Of a DNA stretch of 64,000 nucleotides, positions 52,148 to 56,196 are shown one piece after another; within the stretch, counting starts at the first letter, position 1; the number at the start of each line of letters is the position of its first letter. The stretch spans positions 1,248,001 to 1,312,000 of the forward strand of contig CAVOFT010000001.1 in assembly GCA_963695095.1 (NCBI GenBank), in the 5' to 3' direction. The translations under genes and the position numbers were made by a program. The notes under the pieces are model-generated. The model was given only the letters and a program-made list of their open reading frames with translations, was not told where the DNA came from and made no database searches. The DNA comes from an uncultured bacterium. GTDB lineage: Bacteria > Krumholzibacteriota > Krumholzibacteriia > JACNKJ01.

Positions 52148-52177
52148 TTGACTCTCCCCCCTGTCTCCTCCTATCAT
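52148..52177 (+). promoter_or_regulatory. Putative sigma70 promoter of the peptide/TPR-activator pair
   Basis: TTGACT-N18-TATCAT; hairpin AGACAGG-G-CCTGTCT at 52200-52214 in the leader. Confidence 0.45.
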
Positions 52178-52240
52178 TCTGCTGGCACTTGTGAAGTCGA
52201 GACAGGGCCTGTCTTTACCCTTGCCGGGAGCGCGTTTACG

Positions 52241-52582
52241 ATGAGAAGGGGCGCCACTACCTGCCTATCGATCTTCGCCCTGCTGCTCACAATCTGCTTG
52301 GGCACGGGCAACTCGACGATTCCTCCCGTCAGCGCTGGTGAACTCGTAGTTAAATCGGCTGTCCCGGTGTACTCCAATGGCGGCCCACCGGCTCCGATCG
52401 CCGGTGAAGGCGGCGGGGGCATCCCCGGCGGTGTGGGCGCTGCCGGTGAATCGGGCGATGATGATGACTACTGGGACGGGGTGAACAACGACCAGCAGCC
52501 GCCTCGCAACCAGCACGGGCTGCCCTGGCTGCTGCAGATTCTGGAATCCTGGTGGCGGGCGGGGTCTTGGATTTGGACCTAG
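52241..52582 (+). CDS. Small (113 aa) secreted protein, candidate signalling-peptide precursor
   Basis: GGGAG RBS; signal peptide MRRGATTCLSIFALLLTICLG..VSA; Gly/Pro-rich linker; acidic GDDDDYWDG; Trp-rich C-terminal helix. Confidence 0.6.
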   Translation: MRRGATTCLSIFALLLTICLGTGNSTIPPVSAGELVVKSAVPVYSNGGPPAPIAGEGGGGIPGGVGAAGESGDDDDYWDGVNNDQQPPRNQHGLPWLLQILESWWRAGSWIWT

Positions 52583-52639
52583 GAAGAACGCCGTAGCCAT
52601 CTTCCTCAGAGTGCGTCCACCCCACACGAGGACGAATCG

Positions 52640-55624
52640 ATGAGAGAGCCGGATCGCAGCAGTCCCCAGGAGTTCCAGCAGCAGGCAGGCCGCTCCCCCC
52701 TGCCTAGCCTGGCCAGCTCCACGGACACAGAGGCCATGGGGGATTTCCACTTCTCCTCGGAGAACTACACCCTGGCCCTGGAGTACTTTGAGCAAGCCTA
52801 CCAGCGCGCCCAAGACGAAAGCTCCACGGCGGACCTCTGGCGCCTCGCCTTCAAACTTGGCGAGTGCTATCACCGCAAGGGCCTGGACAATGAATCCCGC
52901 GAGTGGTTCTTCCTCGCGCAGTCCCGGCTGAAGGGCCGCGAGAGCAGCCTGGAATACGGGCTCGTGCTGGACCGTATCGGCATGGTCCACCTCTACACGA
53001 GCAGTCCGGAAGAGGCCCTGCAGTACTGCTTCCAGGCCTACGAGTTGCTGAAGAACTCCTCCCTGCACGCCGAAGTCGCCGAGAACCTCAATCGCATCGC
53101 CATCATCTACTCCCGGCTCGGCTACCCGCGCGAGGCCGAGGAGTTCTTCACCGACGCGCTGGTCACCTATCGCCGCATCGACAACCATCGCGGCGTCATC
53201 GGCGCCACGATGAACCTCGGCTTGCTCAAGAAGAATGCCTGCGACTTCGACGGCGCCCTGGCCCTGTTCAACAAGAGCATGGCGCTGGCCAAGCAGCAGT
53301 CGCTGCACGGCGTGCGCATCAGCTTGCTCTTGAACATCGGCATCGTCTACTTCAAGCAGGGGCGGCATCGGGACGCCTCGGAGATGTTCATCCGCGCGCG
53401 CCGGCTGGCGCGGGAAGCGGGGGACGAGGGCAAGGCGACACGGGCGACCAGTTCGCTGGGCCGCGTCCAGATCCAGCTCGGCAACTATCGCCGGGCCGAG
53501 CAGCTCCTGCTCGAAGGTCGCGTGCTGGCGGAGAAGAACCGTCAGCAGCGCAGCTTGGCGCTGGCCGACGAGTTCCTCGGCGAGTTGGCGGAAGCGAAGG
53601 GCGATCTCGAGGCGGCGCTCGCCAACTACGAGCTCGCGATCGATCTGGCCAAGCAGTTGGCGCCCAAGGGCGACATCGTGGTCGAGCTGCTGCAGCGGAT
53701 CGCGCGCGTGCAGCTCGGCCAGGGGCTTCCCCTCGACGCCGTCCGCACGGCCGAGCGCGGCCTCAAGCTCACGGAGACCAACGGCGAGATCTTCGAGATC
53801 CCCCACCTCTACCGTACCCAGGCGCGGGCTTGGCTGCGGCTGGACAGCGGCGACAAGGCAGAGGTGGCCTTCCGCAACGCCCTGCATGCCTTCCAGGCCA
53901 CCCAGGACCGCAGCGCGGAGGATCAGACCAAGCTGGAGTACTGCGACTTCCTCTTCTCGCGGCGCGCGCTCGAAGATGCGCTGCGGGCGCGGAAGCTGCT
54001 CGAAGACCTGCTCCAGCATCGTTGCGACGAAACCTGCGATCACTTCCGCTTCCGCACCAGTCTGCTCCTGGCCCGGGTGGAGAACTGGCTCGGCGACCTG
54101 GACCGCGCCCTTCTCGCCGTCTTCGATGCCGAGGGCTATCTGCCGGCCGATGCCGCGGAGGCCGATCGGGAAGAGCTGGATCGCGTCCGCGGCGAGGTGG
54201 AGCAGCGTAAGATCGCCCAGGGCGGCAGCGGCTTCGGCTTCCTGCCCGGAGCGCAAAGGAGCTTCCTCGGTGGTCGTGAAGACCTGCCCGAGGAACTGAA
54301 GAGTGCCTGGCTCAGCTTGTTCGAGTTGTGCGATGCCGATGCCGGCTGCCTCTGCATGGATGGCGCCGACGGCGGCCCCTTCGAATTCCTCGCGGGCATG
54401 ACCCGCGGAGAGGGCGAGGACCTGCGGGAAAGCGCGGTGGGCGGCGATGCCGAAGAAGGCCCGGCATCCTCGCTGCTCTTCCAGCCGCTCGTCCACTCCG
54501 GCAAGGAAATGGGTTTCCTCTGTCTCTGGCGCAAGCGTCCGGGGGAGGCGGCGGGCTTCTCTCGCGAAATGGTGCGCTATATCGCCGGCTTCGCCCGCAT
54601 GGTCACCTTGATCGCCTACCAGGAGCGGGAACGGCTGGCGCGGCGGGCGGTGCTGCCCCCCGATCTGCCCGAAGCGACGCAGCACATCATCACTCGCGAT
54701 CCTGGCATGCTCGAGCTCCTGCATCTCACCGGCAAGGTGGCCGAGACCGATGCCTGGGTGCTGCTCAGCGGCGAGACGGGCACGGGCAAGGGCGTGCTGG
54801 CCTATGCCATTCATCGCATGAGCAATCGCCGCGATCGACGCTTCGTGCATGTGAACTGCGCCGCCTTGCCCGAGGAACTGCTCGAGAGCGAGCTCTTCGG
54901 CCACGTGCGCGGCTCCTTCACGGGCGCCATCAATGACAAGGCGGGACTCGTCGAGGAAGCGAACGGCGGCACGCTCTTCCTGGACGAAGTCGGCAAGACC
55001 TCGTTGAGGATGCAGGCGAAGCTGCTGCAGTTCCTCGACACGCGGGAGATCCGCCGCGTAGGCGCGAACGACAGCATCCCCGTGAACGTGCGCCTGATCA
55101 CGGCGACGAAGACGGACCTGAAGGAGCTGGCCCGCGAGGGCCGCTTCCTCGAGGACCTCTACTACCGCCTCAACGATTTCCCCCTGCGCATGCCGCCTCT
55201 GCGCGAGCGCAGGGGGGACATCGCGCTGCTGGCCGAGTACTTCTTGGATCGCTACGGCGCCGAGTTCGGCAAGCGACTGCGCGGGATCTCGCAGCGGGCG
55301 ATGCTCAAGCTGGAGAGCCACGCCTGGCCCGGCAACGTGCGCGAGCTGGAAAAGGTGATCAAGCGTGCGCTGTTGCTCAGCCTCGACAATCAACCGCTGG
55401 CCAGCGACGCCGTTGCGCTGGAAGACGCGCTCCAGGGAGCGCACGGCGGGCAAGTGCAGAGCGTCGACCTGAACCTCAAGCGCCAGGTGGGTGAACTCGA
55501 GCGCCAGTTGGTGGTCGAGGCGCTCGAACAGGCGGACTGGAATCGCACGCGGGCCTGCCGGACCCTGGGCATCAGCTACCCGACACTCTTGCAGAAGATC
55601 CGCAAGTACGCGCTCGACGACTGA
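52640..55624 (+). CDS. TPR-repeat / GAF-like / sigma54 AAA+ activator with Fis-type HTH
   Basis: About 500 aa of TPR helices (ALEYFEQAY, LNRIAIIYSRLG, LLNIGIVYFKQG), no TM helix and no receiver; GETGTGKG, GSFTGA, LFLDEV, EDLYYRL, WPGNVREL, WNRTRACRTLGISYPTL. Confidence 0.92.
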   Translation: MREPDRSSPQEFQQQAGRSPLPSLASSTDTEAMGDFHFSSENYTLALEYFEQAYQRAQDESSTADLWRLAFKLGECYHRKGLDNESREWFFLAQSRLKGRESSLEYGLVLDRIGMVHLYTSSPEEALQYCFQAYELLKNSSLHAEVAENLNRIAIIYSRLGYPREAEEFFTDALVTYRRIDNHRGVIGATMNLGLLKKNACDFDGALALFNKSMALAKQQSLHGVRISLLLNIGIVYFKQGRHRDASEMFIRARRLAREAGDEGKATRATSSLGRVQIQLGNYRRAEQLLLEGRVLAEKNRQQRSLALADEFLGELAEAKGDLEAALANYELAIDLAKQLAPKGDIVVELLQRIARVQLGQGLPLDAVRTAERGLKLTETNGEIFEIPHLYRTQARAWLRLDSGDKAEVAFRNALHAFQATQDRSAEDQTKLEYCDFLFSRRALEDALRARKLLEDLLQHRCDETCDHFRFRTSLLLARVENWLGDLDRALLAVFDAEGYLPADAAEADREELDRVRGEVEQRKIAQGGSGFGFLPGAQRSFLGGREDLPEELKSAWLSLFELCDADAGCLCMDGADGGPFEFLAGMTRGEGEDLRESAVGGDAEEGPASSLLFQPLVHSGKEMGFLCLWRKRPGEAAGFSREMVRYIAGFARMVTLIAYQERERLARRAVLPPDLPEATQHIITRDPGMLELLHLTGKVAETDAWVLLSGETGTGKGVLAYAIHRMSNRRDRRFVHVNCAALPEELLESELFGHVRGSFTGAINDKAGLVEEANGGTLFLDEVGKTSLRMQAKLLQFLDTREIRRVGANDSIPVNVRLITATKTDLKELAREGRFLEDLYYRLNDFPLRMPPLRERRGDIALLAEYFLDRYGAEFGKRLRGISQRAMLKLESHAWPGNVRELEKVIKRALLLSLDNQPLASDAVALEDALQGAHGGQVQSVDLNLKRQVGELERQLVVEALEQADWNRTRACRTLGISYPTLLQKIRKYALDD

Positions 55625-55899
55625 GCAGCAAGGCTCTCTCGGCGACGCGCCGGCTATTCCGCGGGCCCGGTCACACCGGGCCCTTCTGCTTGGCGCTCAC
55701 AAGCTCGTTGCGTAGCGGCAGCCGACCTCCACCTTTTCTCCCAGGCGCCAAAGCCTCTGGCGACTTGAGCTTGCCCGCTCTAGCCGCCGGCAATCTAAAG
55801 AATCTTGCGCAAGTCCATGTCGGTGTACTCTGGCGCTGCGAATCGCCCATGCAAGTGGCTCATTTGCAAGGGGATAAATCCCCCGATCGCGAGCGGTTA

Positions 55900-55915
55900 T
55901 GGCATGCTCCCTGCA
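55900..55915 (+). promoter_or_regulatory. sigma54 (-24/-12) promoter
   Basis: TGGCATGCTCCCTGCA with exact GG-N10-GC spacing. Upstream dyads CTTGCGCAAG (55804-55813), TGCAA-N9-TTGCA (55850-55868) and GGGGAT-AA-ATCCCC (55870-55883). Confidence 0.7.
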
Positions 55916-55926
55916 GTTGAACGCTT

Positions 55927-56196
55927 GAAGTGAGGAGGGCGCCAGGCTTGGCAGGTATGAGGCTCTTTCCAAGCTTCCTCGAGGGACTCGAACGGAATTG
56001 ATAGGGGAAGTCAGCCGGATTCGATGTCGTTCCTCGGGCCGATCGGAAGCGTCCGATGAGTCGATTGACTCGGTCCTTGCGTGAAGTGTGGGGCAACACG
56101 CCAGGGCAATCGGCGAGTCCGATCGAAGGAGATGTACTCCTCTCCTTGATGCTGAGATGTGCGAGGCAGGAGGGCGCAAGCCCTCTTGCCTTTTTT
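55927..56196 (+). ncRNA. Candidate sigma54-dependent structured small RNA (~270 nt)
   Basis: Bounded by a sigma54 promoter and an intrinsic terminator; at least six internal hairpins; no ORF longer than 17 codons that I could find wholly inside it. Confidence 0.5.
56164..56196 (+). terminator. Rho-independent terminator
   Basis: AGGCAGGAGGGC-GCAA-GCCCTCTTGCCT then TTTTT (12-bp stem, GNRA loop). Confidence 0.85.

What the first reader, a model, noticed from the sequence alone, without database searches (positions are those of the whole stretch)
52148..56196. Candidate peptide-sensing circuit: secreted propeptide, TPR-sigma54 activator, sigma54-driven small RNA
Seen: a self-contained three-part module. 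(1) A sigma70-like promoter and a 113-aa ORF with a signal peptide, a flexible Gly/Pro linker, an acidic-aromatic core GDDDDYWDG and a Trp-rich tail. (2) 57 nt later, a cytoplasmic activator whose sensor is ~500 aa of TPRs rather than a receiver. (3) Dyad sites, a correctly spaced -24/-12 promoter and a terminated ~270-nt transcript. Known: RRNPP quorum sensors of Firmicutes (Rap, NprR, PlcR) are TPR proteins encoded beside their exported propeptide, and Vibrio LuxO-sigma54 drives the Qrr sRNAs. Inference: this locus may join the two logics in a diderm, with an exported, processed and re-imported peptide controlling a TPR activator that switches on an sRNA. I do not know of a described system with this layout.
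Basis: partly seen in the sequence, partly recalled or inferred. Interest (0 to 1): 0.88.

Follow-up and report, generated by a model that had tools for sequence, protein, structure and literature searches.

The report
Conserved sigma-54 small-RNA circuit with exported protein
An uncultured bacterial lineage keeps, in every genome looked at, a small exported protein, an unusual TPR-type sigma-54 activator and a new structured small RNA side by side; the RNA seems to feed back on its activator, but nothing shows that an exported peptide comes back in as the signal.

Summary
The three-part module exists and is conserved. By record titles the lineage is Candidatus Krumholzibacteriia. A 113-aa signal-peptide protein (52241-52582) sits 57 nt before a 994-aa TPR / alpha-beta / AAA+ / HTH sigma-54 activator (52640-55624). 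It follows a conserved TTGAC-N17/18-TAT promoter. A -24/-12 promoter (55900-55915) lies 275 nt after the activator's stop. It is followed by about 270 nt of non-coding, structured RNA and a terminator. The promoter match is at chance level inside the window, but it recurs at the same place in 44 of 46 orthologous loci. The RNA matches no Rfam family and is single-copy. It carries a GUGGGG hairpin loop in 49 of 50 loci. RNA-library contigs from two studies lie wholly inside it.

New here: in the commonest RNA type, a 10-nt hairpin loop is the exact complement of codons 3-6 of the activator gene, whose synonymous sites are frozen. That suggests Qrr/luxO-like feedback. In the window's own family the evidence is only a conserved CCCCAC box beside the ribosome-binding site.

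The RRNPP-like "export, process, re-import" reading is untested, and two of five RRNPP criteria fail. The layout is not unprecedented: glmY-qseE-qseG-qseF is close. Verdict: a new variant of a known kind.

The parts
50710..52098 (+). NtrC-type response-regulator sigma-54 activator (REC + AAA+ + HTH_8), called RR-EBP2 here. It is the conserved upstream neighbour of the module.
   Evidence: Pfam. A same-strand orthologue ends 124-283 nt before the small ORF in 34 of 40 loci with enough upstream DNA. It is missing in 5 loci of family f3 and in L079.
52148..52177 (+). Sigma-70-type promoter TTGACT-18-TATCAT for the small ORF and activator genes.
   Evidence: 10 of 12 positions. Conserved in 19 of 24 loci examined.
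52241..52582 (+). Small exported protein of 113 aa. It has a signal-peptide-like N-terminus (about aa 1-33), a Gly/Pro linker, an invariant G72-D73-x-D75 core (GDDDDYWDG, 52454-52480) and an aromatic amphipathic C-terminal tail (about 52520-52579; W104 nearly invariant).
   Evidence: alignment A3, 51 sequences; 122 cluster representatives, all 65-136 aa, no fusions; 69 of 151 genomes, almost always one copy. SignalP was not run.
52617..52633 (+). CCACCCCACAC box directly 5' of the Shine-Dalgarno GAGGAC of the activator gene. It is the candidate pairing site for the sRNA's GUGUGGGG loop.
   Evidence: CCCCAC and AGGAC are the only invariant blocks of the spacer in 7 of 7 loci of the window's family. 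The 8-nt complementarity is not above control by length alone.
52640..55624 (+). Cytoplasmic sigma-54 activator of 994 aa. Layout: about 12 TPR-like repeats (aa 27-500; 52718-54139), a long helix, an alpha/beta domain (aa about 551-675; 54290-54664), AAA+ with a GSFTGA loop (aa 683-849; 54686-55186) and HTH_8 (aa 951-990; 55490-55609).
   Evidence: Full-length or N-terminal matches were listed for 28 of the 41 class genomes searched, and the best hit of the other 13 lies in an open frame of 1033-1095 aa. It is below the cut-off of every NCBIfam model.
55663..55683 (+). GC-rich hairpin after the activator's stop codon, possibly a weak terminator.
55900..55915 (+). Sigma-54 promoter TGGCATGCTCCCTGCA (GG-N10-GC).
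   Evidence: The same element lies 192-342 nt after the activator's stop in 44 of 46 orthologous loci. rpoN is present in the genome.
55926..56196 (+). Non-coding RNA of about 270 nt. The start is inferred from the promoter geometry.
   Evidence: No conserved reading frame. RNAalifold predicts 93 pairs, 36 with compensatory changes, over 7 sequences. nhmmer finds a single genomic hit at window 55923-56196. No Rfam match. RNA-library contigs of 227 and 221 nt lie at 55938-56162 and 55936-56156.
56079..56101 (+). Hairpin GCGUG/CACGC with the loop AAGUGUGGGGCAA, which holds the class-wide GUGGGG motif.
   Evidence: GUGGGG sits in a loop closed by at least 4 bp in 49 of 50 loci, against 0 of 50 in each of two controls.
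56163..56196 (+). Intrinsic terminator: a 13-bp stem followed by TTTTTT.
   Evidence: A T run lies about 265-285 nt after the promoter in most loci.

Best explanation
This is a lineage-wide regulatory cassette. From a sigma-70-type promoter the cell makes a small exported protein and a cytoplasmic sigma-54 activator. The activator's input side is a 12-repeat TPR superhelix plus an alpha/beta domain, in place of a receiver domain. When switched on, the activator drives the sigma-54 promoter just downstream of its own gene, possibly together with the NtrC-type regulator encoded directly upstream. The product is a structured non-coding RNA of about 270 nt that displays a GUGGGG hairpin loop.

The RNA then pairs with the translation-initiation region of its activator's own mRNA, closing a feedback loop as Qrr does with luxO. 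It presumably acts on other mRNAs too.

The exported protein is a dedicated partner of the circuit. It most likely acts outside the cytoplasm as an envelope-side co-sensor or reporter. The relay to the activator is not identified.

Shown: the parts, their conservation and linkage, the non-coding nature and structure of the RNA, and the complementarity with frozen synonymous sites.

Inferred: who activates the promoter, the sign of the feedback, export itself, and what is sensed.

My sub-odds:
- Activator to adjacent sRNA: 0.75.
- Feedback pairing in the commonest RNA type: 0.8.
- Feedback pairing in the window's own family: 0.45.
- Small protein functionally tied to the circuit's input: 0.6.
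For: Linkage:
- A small ORF lies upstream in 16 of 16 loci with a full-length orthologue. It is also present in every further locus with intact upstream DNA.
- For the 26 genomes listed in both, the small-ORF hit lies directly upstream of the activator in 25.
- Families f4 and f7, which the profile misses, still have an upstream small ORF with the same two elements in swapped order.

Promoter:
- Present in 15 of 16 loci at up to 2 mismatches, 217-346 nt after the activator match.
- Present in 44 of 46 loci overall, and in 6 of 7 extra loci of families f2, f4, f6 and f7.
- rpoN is present.

RNA:
- Nucleotide blocks are conserved across different reading frames.
- Covariation: 36 of 93 predicted pairs in the window's RNA type and 16 of 42 in the commonest type.
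- GUGGGG loop in 49 of 50 loci, against 0 of 50 in each of two controls.
- Single copy in the genome.
- RNA-library contigs from two studies lie inside the predicted transcript, and none lies on 55622-55935.

Feedback:
- In 23 loci of the commonest type, the sRNA loop UCCCGUGCGU is the complement of nt +7 to +16 of the activator ORF.
- The codons there are frozen: Ala4 GCA 23 of 23, Arg5 CGG 23 of 23, codon 3 xAC 23 of 23, Asp6 GAC 22 of 23.
- Neighbouring Ser, Asp and Arg codons vary freely.
- The window's family has a conserved CCCCAC box next to the SD in 7 of 7 loci.

The activator carries the AAA+ domain, a GSFTGA loop and HTH_8.
Against: - No conserved upstream activator-binding site was found. 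So the assignment of this activator to this promoter rests on adjacency alone.
- The response-regulator activator next door is an equally placed candidate in 34 of 40 loci.
- The promoter match is at chance level within the window itself.
- In the window's family the sRNA/mRNA complementarity is only 6-8 nt. That equals the mean of control windows (7.8, maximum 11).
- A CCCCAC + SD + start pattern is not enriched genome-wide: 29 hits against 19-45 for permuted boxes.
- A hairpin in the 5' UTR is barely supported, at -1.7 kcal/mol.
- Sequence profiles do not link the window's RNA type to the commonest type. The homology rests on position and the GUGGGG hairpin.
- Expression evidence is from assembled contigs only, with no strand or end information, and the one DNA run laid does not cover the region.
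- Export of the small protein was judged by eye, not by SignalP.
Confidence: 0.6

Rival explanations
1. The small protein is exported and cut. A peptide around the acidic-aromatic GDxDD core or the C-terminal tail is re-imported and binds the TPR groove, switching the activator on.
For: - The small signal-peptide ORF is adjacent to a TPR protein, 57 nt away, inside the RRNPP range of -50 to 191 bp.
- The linkage is class-wide.
- The TPR array is closest to peptide-binding superhelices: kinesin light chain at E 5e-23 and LGN/Pins. From recall, kinesin light chain binds Trp-acidic motifs, and the core here is acidic-aromatic.
- Two loci in the genome match the SBP_bac_5 family of solute-binding proteins, to which (recalled) OppA belongs.
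Against: - The receptor is 994 aa with N-terminal TPRs. The propeptide is 113 aa (91-117 in the family), with two conserved elements and a mature part of about 80 aa.
- The GDxD core is invariant across the class and the gene is single-copy. There are no paralogue families or pherotype-like diversification.
- Rap proteins appear only far down the structure lists, at E 5e-7 or weaker, and no RRNPP receptor is among the listed fold matches.
- A diderm adds an outer-membrane barrier to re-import.
Confidence: 0.12
2. A QseG/ZraP-like reading. The exported small protein acts in the periplasm on a histidine kinase encoded elsewhere. That kinase phosphorylates the NtrC-type regulator encoded just upstream, and this regulator drives the sRNA promoter, alone or with the TPR activator. 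The TPR/alpha-beta input senses something cytoplasmic and unrelated to the small protein.
For: - Precedent: glmY-qseE-qseG-qseF, where an exported small protein is required for kinase activity and so for sigma-54-dependent sRNA transcription (PMC6075780; PMC8745638 abstract).
- The response-regulator activator is the conserved upstream neighbour in 34 of 40 loci.
- The small protein's features (signal peptide, disordered linker, amphipathic tail) suit a periplasmic protein.
Against: - No kinase is part of the conserved unit. In G025 the regulator's upstream neighbour is rlmN. In the window the nearest kinase is 5 kb upstream and paired with another regulator.
- Family f3 keeps the small ORF, TPR activator and sRNA without the adjacent response regulator.
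- The small ORF is spaced about 55 nt from the TPR gene, but 125-280 nt and a promoter away from the regulator gene.
- There is no lipobox and no conserved Cys, and no similarity to any known family.
Confidence: 0.2
3. A secretion or envelope-stress monitor. The TPR domain binds the unexported precursor in the cytoplasm, so the circuit reports on export capacity without any re-import.
For: - It explains how a cytoplasmic TPR protein could meet a signal-peptide protein.
- A long TPR superhelix suits binding of an extended, disordered chain of about 80 aa.
- The two genes are made together from one promoter.
Against: There is no direct evidence. No precedent with a sigma-54 activator is known to me (recall only). 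The invariant GDxD core and the element swap in families f4 and f7 do not specifically favour this reading.
Confidence: 0.08
4. The 270-nt transcript is not a free-standing sRNA. It would be the leader of the downstream operon, or a small-protein mRNA.
For: SD-like GAGGAGG and short ORFs occur inside it, such as a 14-codon ORF from 55958. The alternative complex III genes start 118 nt after the terminator.
Against: - A strong terminator is conserved.
- Indels shift the reading frames between close relatives.
- The downstream gene differs between families: cytochrome genes in the window's family, ClpB in L013, and a lipoprotein-like gene with its own sigma-54 promoter elsewhere.
- RNA contigs stop at about 56156-56162.
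Confidence: 0.05

Closest known systems
glmY-qseE(glrK)-qseG-qseF(glrR) of Enterobacteriaceae (PMC6075780 abstract and passages; PMC8745638 abstract)
   Same: One locus holds a small exported protein, a sigma-54 activator and, beside them, the sigma-54-dependent sRNA that the activator switches on. The output is tied to the cell envelope.
   Different: QseG is a lipoprotein that acts on the periplasmic domain of an adjacent histidine kinase, and QseF is a response regulator. Here no kinase belongs to the conserved unit and the small protein has no lipobox. The activator next to it has a TPR plus alpha/beta input instead of a receiver. There is no sequence similarity.
LuxO-Qrr of Vibrio (PMC2680268, title and start of abstract from the search listing; PMC3262071 passages)
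   Same: A sigma-54 activator drives sRNAs. From recall, qrr1 lies beside luxO. The sRNAs pair with the activator's own mRNA, which gives feedback.
   Different: LuxO is a phosphorelay response regulator, and from recall the Qrr sRNAs are about 100 nt and Hfq-dependent. Here the RNA is about 270 nt and highly structured, with a different loop motif and no Rfam match. The feedback is inferred from complementarity and frozen codons only.
RRNPP peptide quorum sensing of Firmicutes (PMC10075063 passages)
   Same: A signal-peptide small ORF sits directly beside a cytoplasmic TPR regulator.
   Different: Receptor length, TPR position, propeptide length, an invariant rather than diversifying core, a single copy per genome, diderm hosts, and a sigma-54 AAA+ output instead of an HTH or phosphatase domain.
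Other activator-adjacent sigma-54 sRNAs: cbrB-crcZ (Pseudomonas) and pxr (Myxococcus). Both are recalled. PMC6296734 was seen only as a search listing.
   Same: The sRNA gene lies immediately downstream of a sigma-54 activator gene and is transcribed from a -24/-12 promoter.
   Different: Those activators are response regulators. No exported small protein is part of those loci, as far as I recall.
Kinesin-light-chain and LGN/Pins TPR domains
   Same: These are the closest solved TPR arrays by sequence profile and by fold. They bind extended peptides in the concave groove. From recall, kinesin light chain binds Trp-acidic motifs.
   Different: They are eukaryotic cargo and polarity adaptors. 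The similarity is at the level of a generic repeat class and says nothing about the ligand here.

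Membership tests
Bacterial enhancer-binding protein (sigma-54 activator) | AAA+ sigma-54 interaction domain (PF00158) with Walker motifs and a GAFTGA-type loop | tested here: met
   PF00158 at E 9.5e-65, residues 683-849. GETGTGKG, LFLDEVG and GSFTGA can be read in the translation.
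Bacterial enhancer-binding protein (sigma-54 activator) | C-terminal Fis-type HTH, and rpoN present in the genome | tested here: met
   HTH_8 at residues 951-990. Sigma54_DBD hit at 217 bits in the window's own genome.
Bacterial enhancer-binding protein (sigma-54 activator) | Binds an upstream activating sequence and activates a -24/-12 promoter | not testable with these tools
   A conserved promoter lies next door, but no conserved binding site was found.
RRNPP quorum-sensing pair (criteria from PMC10075063) | Small propeptide (10-100 aa; validated ones 21-50 aa) | tested here: not met
   113 aa here, and 91-117 aa in the loci.
RRNPP quorum-sensing pair (criteria from PMC10075063) | Propeptide exported by the Sec pathway (SignalP) | tested here: inconclusive
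   Basic N-terminus, hydrophobic stretch and AxA-like sites were seen by eye and by a hydropathy score. SignalP was not available.
RRNPP quorum-sensing pair (criteria from PMC10075063) | Receptor 250-500 aa with TPRs C-terminal to the effector domain | tested here: not met
   994 aa, with TPRs at residues 27-500, N-terminal to the AAA+ and HTH domains.
RRNPP quorum-sensing pair (criteria from PMC10075063) | Receptor and propeptide genes directly adjacent | tested here: met
   57-nt gap here and 22-217 nt in relatives.
RRNPP quorum-sensing pair (criteria from PMC10075063) | Mature peptide re-imported and bound by the TPR domain | not testable with these tools
   Two loci matching the SBP_bac_5 solute-binding family exist in the genome. 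That does not test import.
QseG-type accessory lipoprotein | Lipobox Cys, and an adjacent histidine kinase with a periplasmic domain | tested here: not met
   No conserved Cys in alignment A3; only G72, D73 and D75 are invariant. No kinase lies in the conserved unit.
Known sRNA families (Rfam 15, including Qrr, GlmY, CrcZ) | Match to a curated covariance model | tested here: not met
   No match at gathering score in the window or in 12 related loci. Only two chance-level hits at E up to 10 in 55500-56400.

The most novel reading that the evidence does not exclude
A genetically encoded exported protein, or a fragment of it carrying the acidic-aromatic GDxDD core, is the direct ligand of the cytoplasmic TPR superhelix. 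That would make this the first peptide-sensing, RRNPP-like circuit in a diderm lineage. It would be wired through sigma-54 to a feedback sRNA and conserved across a whole candidate phylum.
Probability: 0.13. Interest if true: 0.9.

Novelty: new variant of a known kind. Interest (0 to 1): 0.66.

Why it matters
The finding gives a candidate phylum known almost only from metagenome-assembled genomes three things:
- its first defined regulatory circuit;
- a new structured sRNA family with a universal GUGGGG loop;
- a new small secreted protein family.

It also describes a sigma-54 activator whose input is a 12-repeat TPR superhelix. I know of no studied example of that architecture. The one search for it listed none, and the public names found for relatives are only generic.

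The frozen codons facing the sRNA loop make a testable case that activator/sRNA feedback of the Qrr/luxO kind arose independently, far from Vibrio.

All parts are small enough to rebuild in E. coli. What the TPR domain senses, and whether the exported protein is that signal, can therefore be tested without culturing the organism.

Tried and rejected
- Co-fold of the TPR plus alpha/beta region (1-650, alignment A1) with the mature small protein (34-113, alignment A3): no verdict. The score was 0.12 against a mark of 0.32. This says nothing either way.
- RNA duplex z-scores of the sRNA against the start regions of the small ORF and the activator: uninformative, because duplexfold built long loop-ridden structures. 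Mean z was -0.04 and -1.03.
- Genome-wide scan for CCCCAC + SD + start as a target signature: 29 hits against 19-45 for permuted boxes, so no enrichment.
- Kissing-loop idea for the 5' UTR: the consensus hairpin is only -1.7 kcal/mol and 1 of 5 pairs covaries.
- Enhancer dyad GTAAC-N14-20-GTTAC: found in 5 of 44 loci.
- The profile of the commonest RNA type against the window's genome gave no hit.
- The protein atlas gave only unnamed small proteins labelled Eiseniibacteriota at 0.82-0.85, below the 0.9 lead level.
- Paralogue search for the small ORF in the window's genome: none with an E-value below 0.09.
- Earlier notes of this scan: none for this place.
- Literature: 'Krumholzibacteriota' gave 68 papers, and none of the 15 listed is about regulation. 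'tetratricopeptide + enhancer-binding protein + sigma-54 + small RNA' listed nothing that describes such an activator.
- DNA run X1 and the parts of the stretch without RNA contigs are not used as evidence of absence.
- The sorting-signal idea for the C-terminal tail was dropped. All 122 profile hits are stand-alone proteins of 65-136 aa.

Full report
**What is in the window**

The window is G000:C1:1248001-1312000.
- A sigma-70-like promoter, TTGACT-18-TATCAT, at 52148-52177. It matches 10 of 12 positions, with 1 site found against 0.3 expected in shuffles.
- A 113-aa ORF at 52241-52582.
- After a 57-nt gap, a 994-aa ORF at 52640-55624. Pfam gives TPR_12 (5 stretches), Sigma54_activat (683-849, E 9.5e-65), AAA_lid_14 and HTH_8 (951-990). 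There is no receiver domain.
- A GC-rich hairpin at 55663-55683.
- TGGCATGCTCCCTGCA at 55900-55915.
- A 13-bp terminator stem at 56163-56192, followed by TTTTTT.

An AlphaFold2 model of residues 1-650 has mean pLDDT 84 and pTM 0.69. It shows 24 helices over residues 27-500, which I read as about 12 TPR-like repeats. A long helix and a less confident alpha/beta domain (about 551-650) follow. The small ORF matches nothing in Pfam or NCBIfam. The activator is below the curated cut-off of every NCBIfam model.

Upstream lie a histidine kinase, a response-regulator activator (46916-48295), a 475-aa protein without any family, and a second response-regulator activator (50710-52098). Downstream are multihaem cytochrome genes that I read as an alternative complex III operon. 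That reading of the operon is from recall.

**Is it more than chance?**

Within the window alone, the -24/-12 match is not. The pattern with up to 2 mismatches occurs 15 times against 25 expected. Its weight comes from relatives.

The activator search hit all 41 class genomes searched, but that threshold also admits other sigma-54 activators. Full-length or N-terminal matches were listed for 28 of the 41. The best hit of the other 13 lies in an open frame of 1033-1095 aa.
- In the 16 loci with full-length matches, 16 of 16 have a same-strand small ORF that ends 52-144 nt before the activator match.
- In 15 of those 16, a promoter with up to 2 mismatches lies on the same strand 217-346 nt after the match. 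The sixteenth, L017, has TGGCATGAAGGGTGCC.

A scan of one genome per species returned 53 more loci. By their record titles most are Candidatus Krumholzibacteriia; some are labelled Latescibacteria or Latescibacterota. I removed 11 duplicates. I also set aside L080 (not an orthologue), L078 (activator frame broken) and L055 (only 56 nt of downstream DNA).
- After that, 44 of 46 loci carry the promoter 192-342 nt after the stop codon.
- The two misses are L038, where the activator frame is cut at 577 aa, and L079, at 26% identity.
- Six of seven further loci from families f2, f4, f6 and f7 also have it.

The sigma-70-type promoter is conserved 77-112 nt before the small ORF in 19 of 24 loci examined. 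So is a GGAAGGAG ribosome-binding site.

Only the hairpin after the stop codon and one palindrome were found. A GTAAC-N-GTTAC dyad that I saw by eye occurs in just 5 of 44 loci.

**The small protein**

I aligned 51 sequences as A3. L041 was left out because it lacks the tail.
- G72, D73 and D75 are invariant, giving a GDxD core.
- W104 and R3 are nearly invariant.
- Mean column identity is only 24%.

The build is always the same: a basic N-terminus, a hydrophobic stretch, an AxA-like site, a variable Gly/Pro/Ser linker, the acidic core, 15-40 variable residues, and a 15-18-residue aromatic amphipathic tail that often ends in Arg or Lys.

A profile search of 1.84 billion representatives found 122 proteins at E up to 0.001. 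All are 65-136 aa and matched end to end. The protein is therefore never a tag on a larger protein.

In 151 genomes of the phylum, the profile hits 69, and 65 of those 69 have a single match. All genomes of families f1, f3 and f8 are hit, and 16 of 17 of f5. Few of f2 and f4 are hit, and none of f7.

Families f4 and f7 nevertheless have an upstream small ORF. In it the two elements are swapped: signal peptide, then the aromatic helix (SSWLSYYFANFLRAHRH), then GDADDYANGR. That speaks for two separate functional modules.

For the 26 genomes listed in both, the small-ORF hit lies directly upstream of the activator in 25. The exception is G026, a weak hit inside a 533-aa frame on another contig. 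There is no paralogue in the window's own genome.

**The RNA**

Downstream of the promoter there is no conserved reading frame. The same nucleotide blocks appear in different frames, and close relatives differ by indels.
- RNAalifold on the 7 sequences of the window's family predicts 93 pairs, 36 with compensatory changes.
- The commonest type (19 sequences) has 42 predicted pairs, 16 compensatory. These include a long closing stem with CG:9 against UA:9 at one pair.
- The RNA types differ so much that a sequence profile of the commonest type does not find the window's copy.
- GUGGGG nevertheless sits in the loop of a hairpin of at least 4 bp in 49 of 50 loci. The miss, L042, is N-masked. The motif occurs in 0 of 50 coding-region control windows and 0 of 50 reverse complements.
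- The stems differ between types: GCGUG/CACGC, UUCGAGA/UCUCGAA, CGCCAA/UUGGUG and CAGCGA/UCGCUG.
- The window's copy is the only one in its genome, at window 55923-56196.
- There is no Rfam family for the window, or for 12 loci covering the RNA types seen.

Three RNA-library runs hold contigs that lie wholly inside the predicted transcript. X7 and X8 come from one sample, and X9 from another study. The contigs are 227 nt (55938-56162) and 221 nt (55936-56156), each with 5 differences. None lies on 55622-55935. In X7 and X8, contigs of the activator's 3' end (55341-55621) are also present. These are assembled contigs without strand or end information, and the DNA run laid does not cover the RNA. 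I count this as a weak hint of a discrete transcript.

**Feedback (new here)**

In 23 loci of the commonest RNA type, the invariant loop of the 5' hairpin, UCCCGUGCGU, is the exact complement of nt +7 to +16 of the activator ORF, ATG TCC [A/G]AC GCA CGG GAC.

A 10-nt match is not rare on its own: control windows reach 8-11 nt. But the synonymous sites are frozen exactly there:
- Ala4 is GCA in 23 of 23 loci.
- Arg5 is CGG in 23 of 23.
- Codon 3 ends in AC in 23 of 23.
- Asp6 is GAC in 22 of 23.

Nearby codons vary freely. Ser2 uses four codons. Asp7 and Asp9 split GAC:GAT at 2:8 and 6:5. The Arg codons at positions 8, 15 and 16 use six codons between them. This is selection at the nucleotide level at the spot that faces the sRNA's most conserved loop. 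From recall, pairing within the first five codons can block ribosome binding. The parallel is Qrr pairing with luxO mRNA (PMC3262071 passages).

In the window's own family the evidence is weaker.
- CCCCAC, the complement of the GUGGGG loop, sits 19-22 nt before the ATG and directly 5' of the SD in 7 of 7 loci.
- CCCCAC and AGGAC are the only invariant blocks of that spacer.
- The 6-8 nt of pairing is no longer than control.
- The box is not enriched before genes genome-wide.
- Other RNA types show different short complementarities at the same place: AGUCCCCCG at -21, and GGCGUCCA abutting the AUG.

**What senses what**

By sequence profile the TPR array is closest to kinesin light chain (E 5e-23). 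By fold and by profile it is also close to LGN/Pins, which bind extended peptides. Rap proteins appear only at E 5e-7 or weaker.

TPR-domain relatives that also carry the sigma-54 domain were found only in this lineage: 25 of the 26 best hits, the other being a 586-aa TPR-only entry. Public names for them are generic. That search is word-limited and cannot show absence elsewhere.

The response-regulator activator is the upstream neighbour in 34 of 40 loci but is missing in family f3, which keeps the other three parts. In G025 no kinase lies nearby. There the downstream genes, behind a second sigma-54 promoter, include an M6 peptidase with a type IX secretion tail.

**Comparison and verdict**

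The parts and their linkage are real. The activator-to-sRNA link and the feedback are well-founded inferences. The role of the exported protein is open.

Against the RRNPP signature (PMC10075063), adjacency is met and TPRs are present, though at the wrong end of the protein. Export is likely but was not formally tested. Receptor length and propeptide length are not met.

The nearest described layout is glmY-qseE-qseG-qseF. The nearest logic is LuxO-Qrr.

I file this as a new variant of a known kind. It brings a new sRNA family, a new small-protein family and an unstudied activator architecture.

Noticed in passing
L114, L115, L117, L118, L120 (about 150-250 nt after the sRNA; seen in the output): A second conserved non-coding block follows the sRNA in families f4, f6 and f7: GGAAUGGCGAGAUCC...GCGAGUAUGGACAUCCCCUCCGGUGCUCGC. 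It has no Rfam match at gathering score. It may be another structured RNA or a leader.
   Followed up: partly
L013, L015, L016, L019, L023, L024 (738-1031 nt after the activator match); L121:6881-7723 and 2191-5547: A second sigma-54 promoter lies further downstream in several families. It precedes a lipoprotein-like gene (FPPTPPDGVYSVTGDG...). In G025 that gene is followed by an M6 peptidase with a type IX secretion C-terminal domain. In L013 the promoter precedes a ClpB-like gene.
   Followed up: partly
L114-L118: In families f4 and f7 the small protein has its two conserved elements in swapped order: the aromatic amphipathic helix comes before the GDADD core. The sRNA there is shorter, about 150 nt.
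   Followed up: partly
window 44421-52098: Three sigma-54 activator genes lie within 9 kb (46916-48295, 50710-52098, 52640-55624), plus a histidine kinase whose gene ends at 46916. An rlmN-like gene on the minus strand (about 44421-45500) overlaps the long plus-strand frame that holds the kinase. In G025 rlmN lies directly beside the response-regulator gene, so the kinase block looks like an insertion in the window's family.
   Followed up: partly
window 49239-50666: A 475-aa ORF with a signal-like N-terminus has no Pfam or NCBIfam family. It lies between the two response-regulator activator genes.
   Followed up: no
window 56021-56030 and 52647-52656: The sRNA block AGCCGGAUUCGA shares AGCCGGAU in the same sense with codons 3-5 of the activator gene (ATGAGAGAGCCGGATCG). 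This is identity, not complementarity, and may be chance.
   Followed up: no
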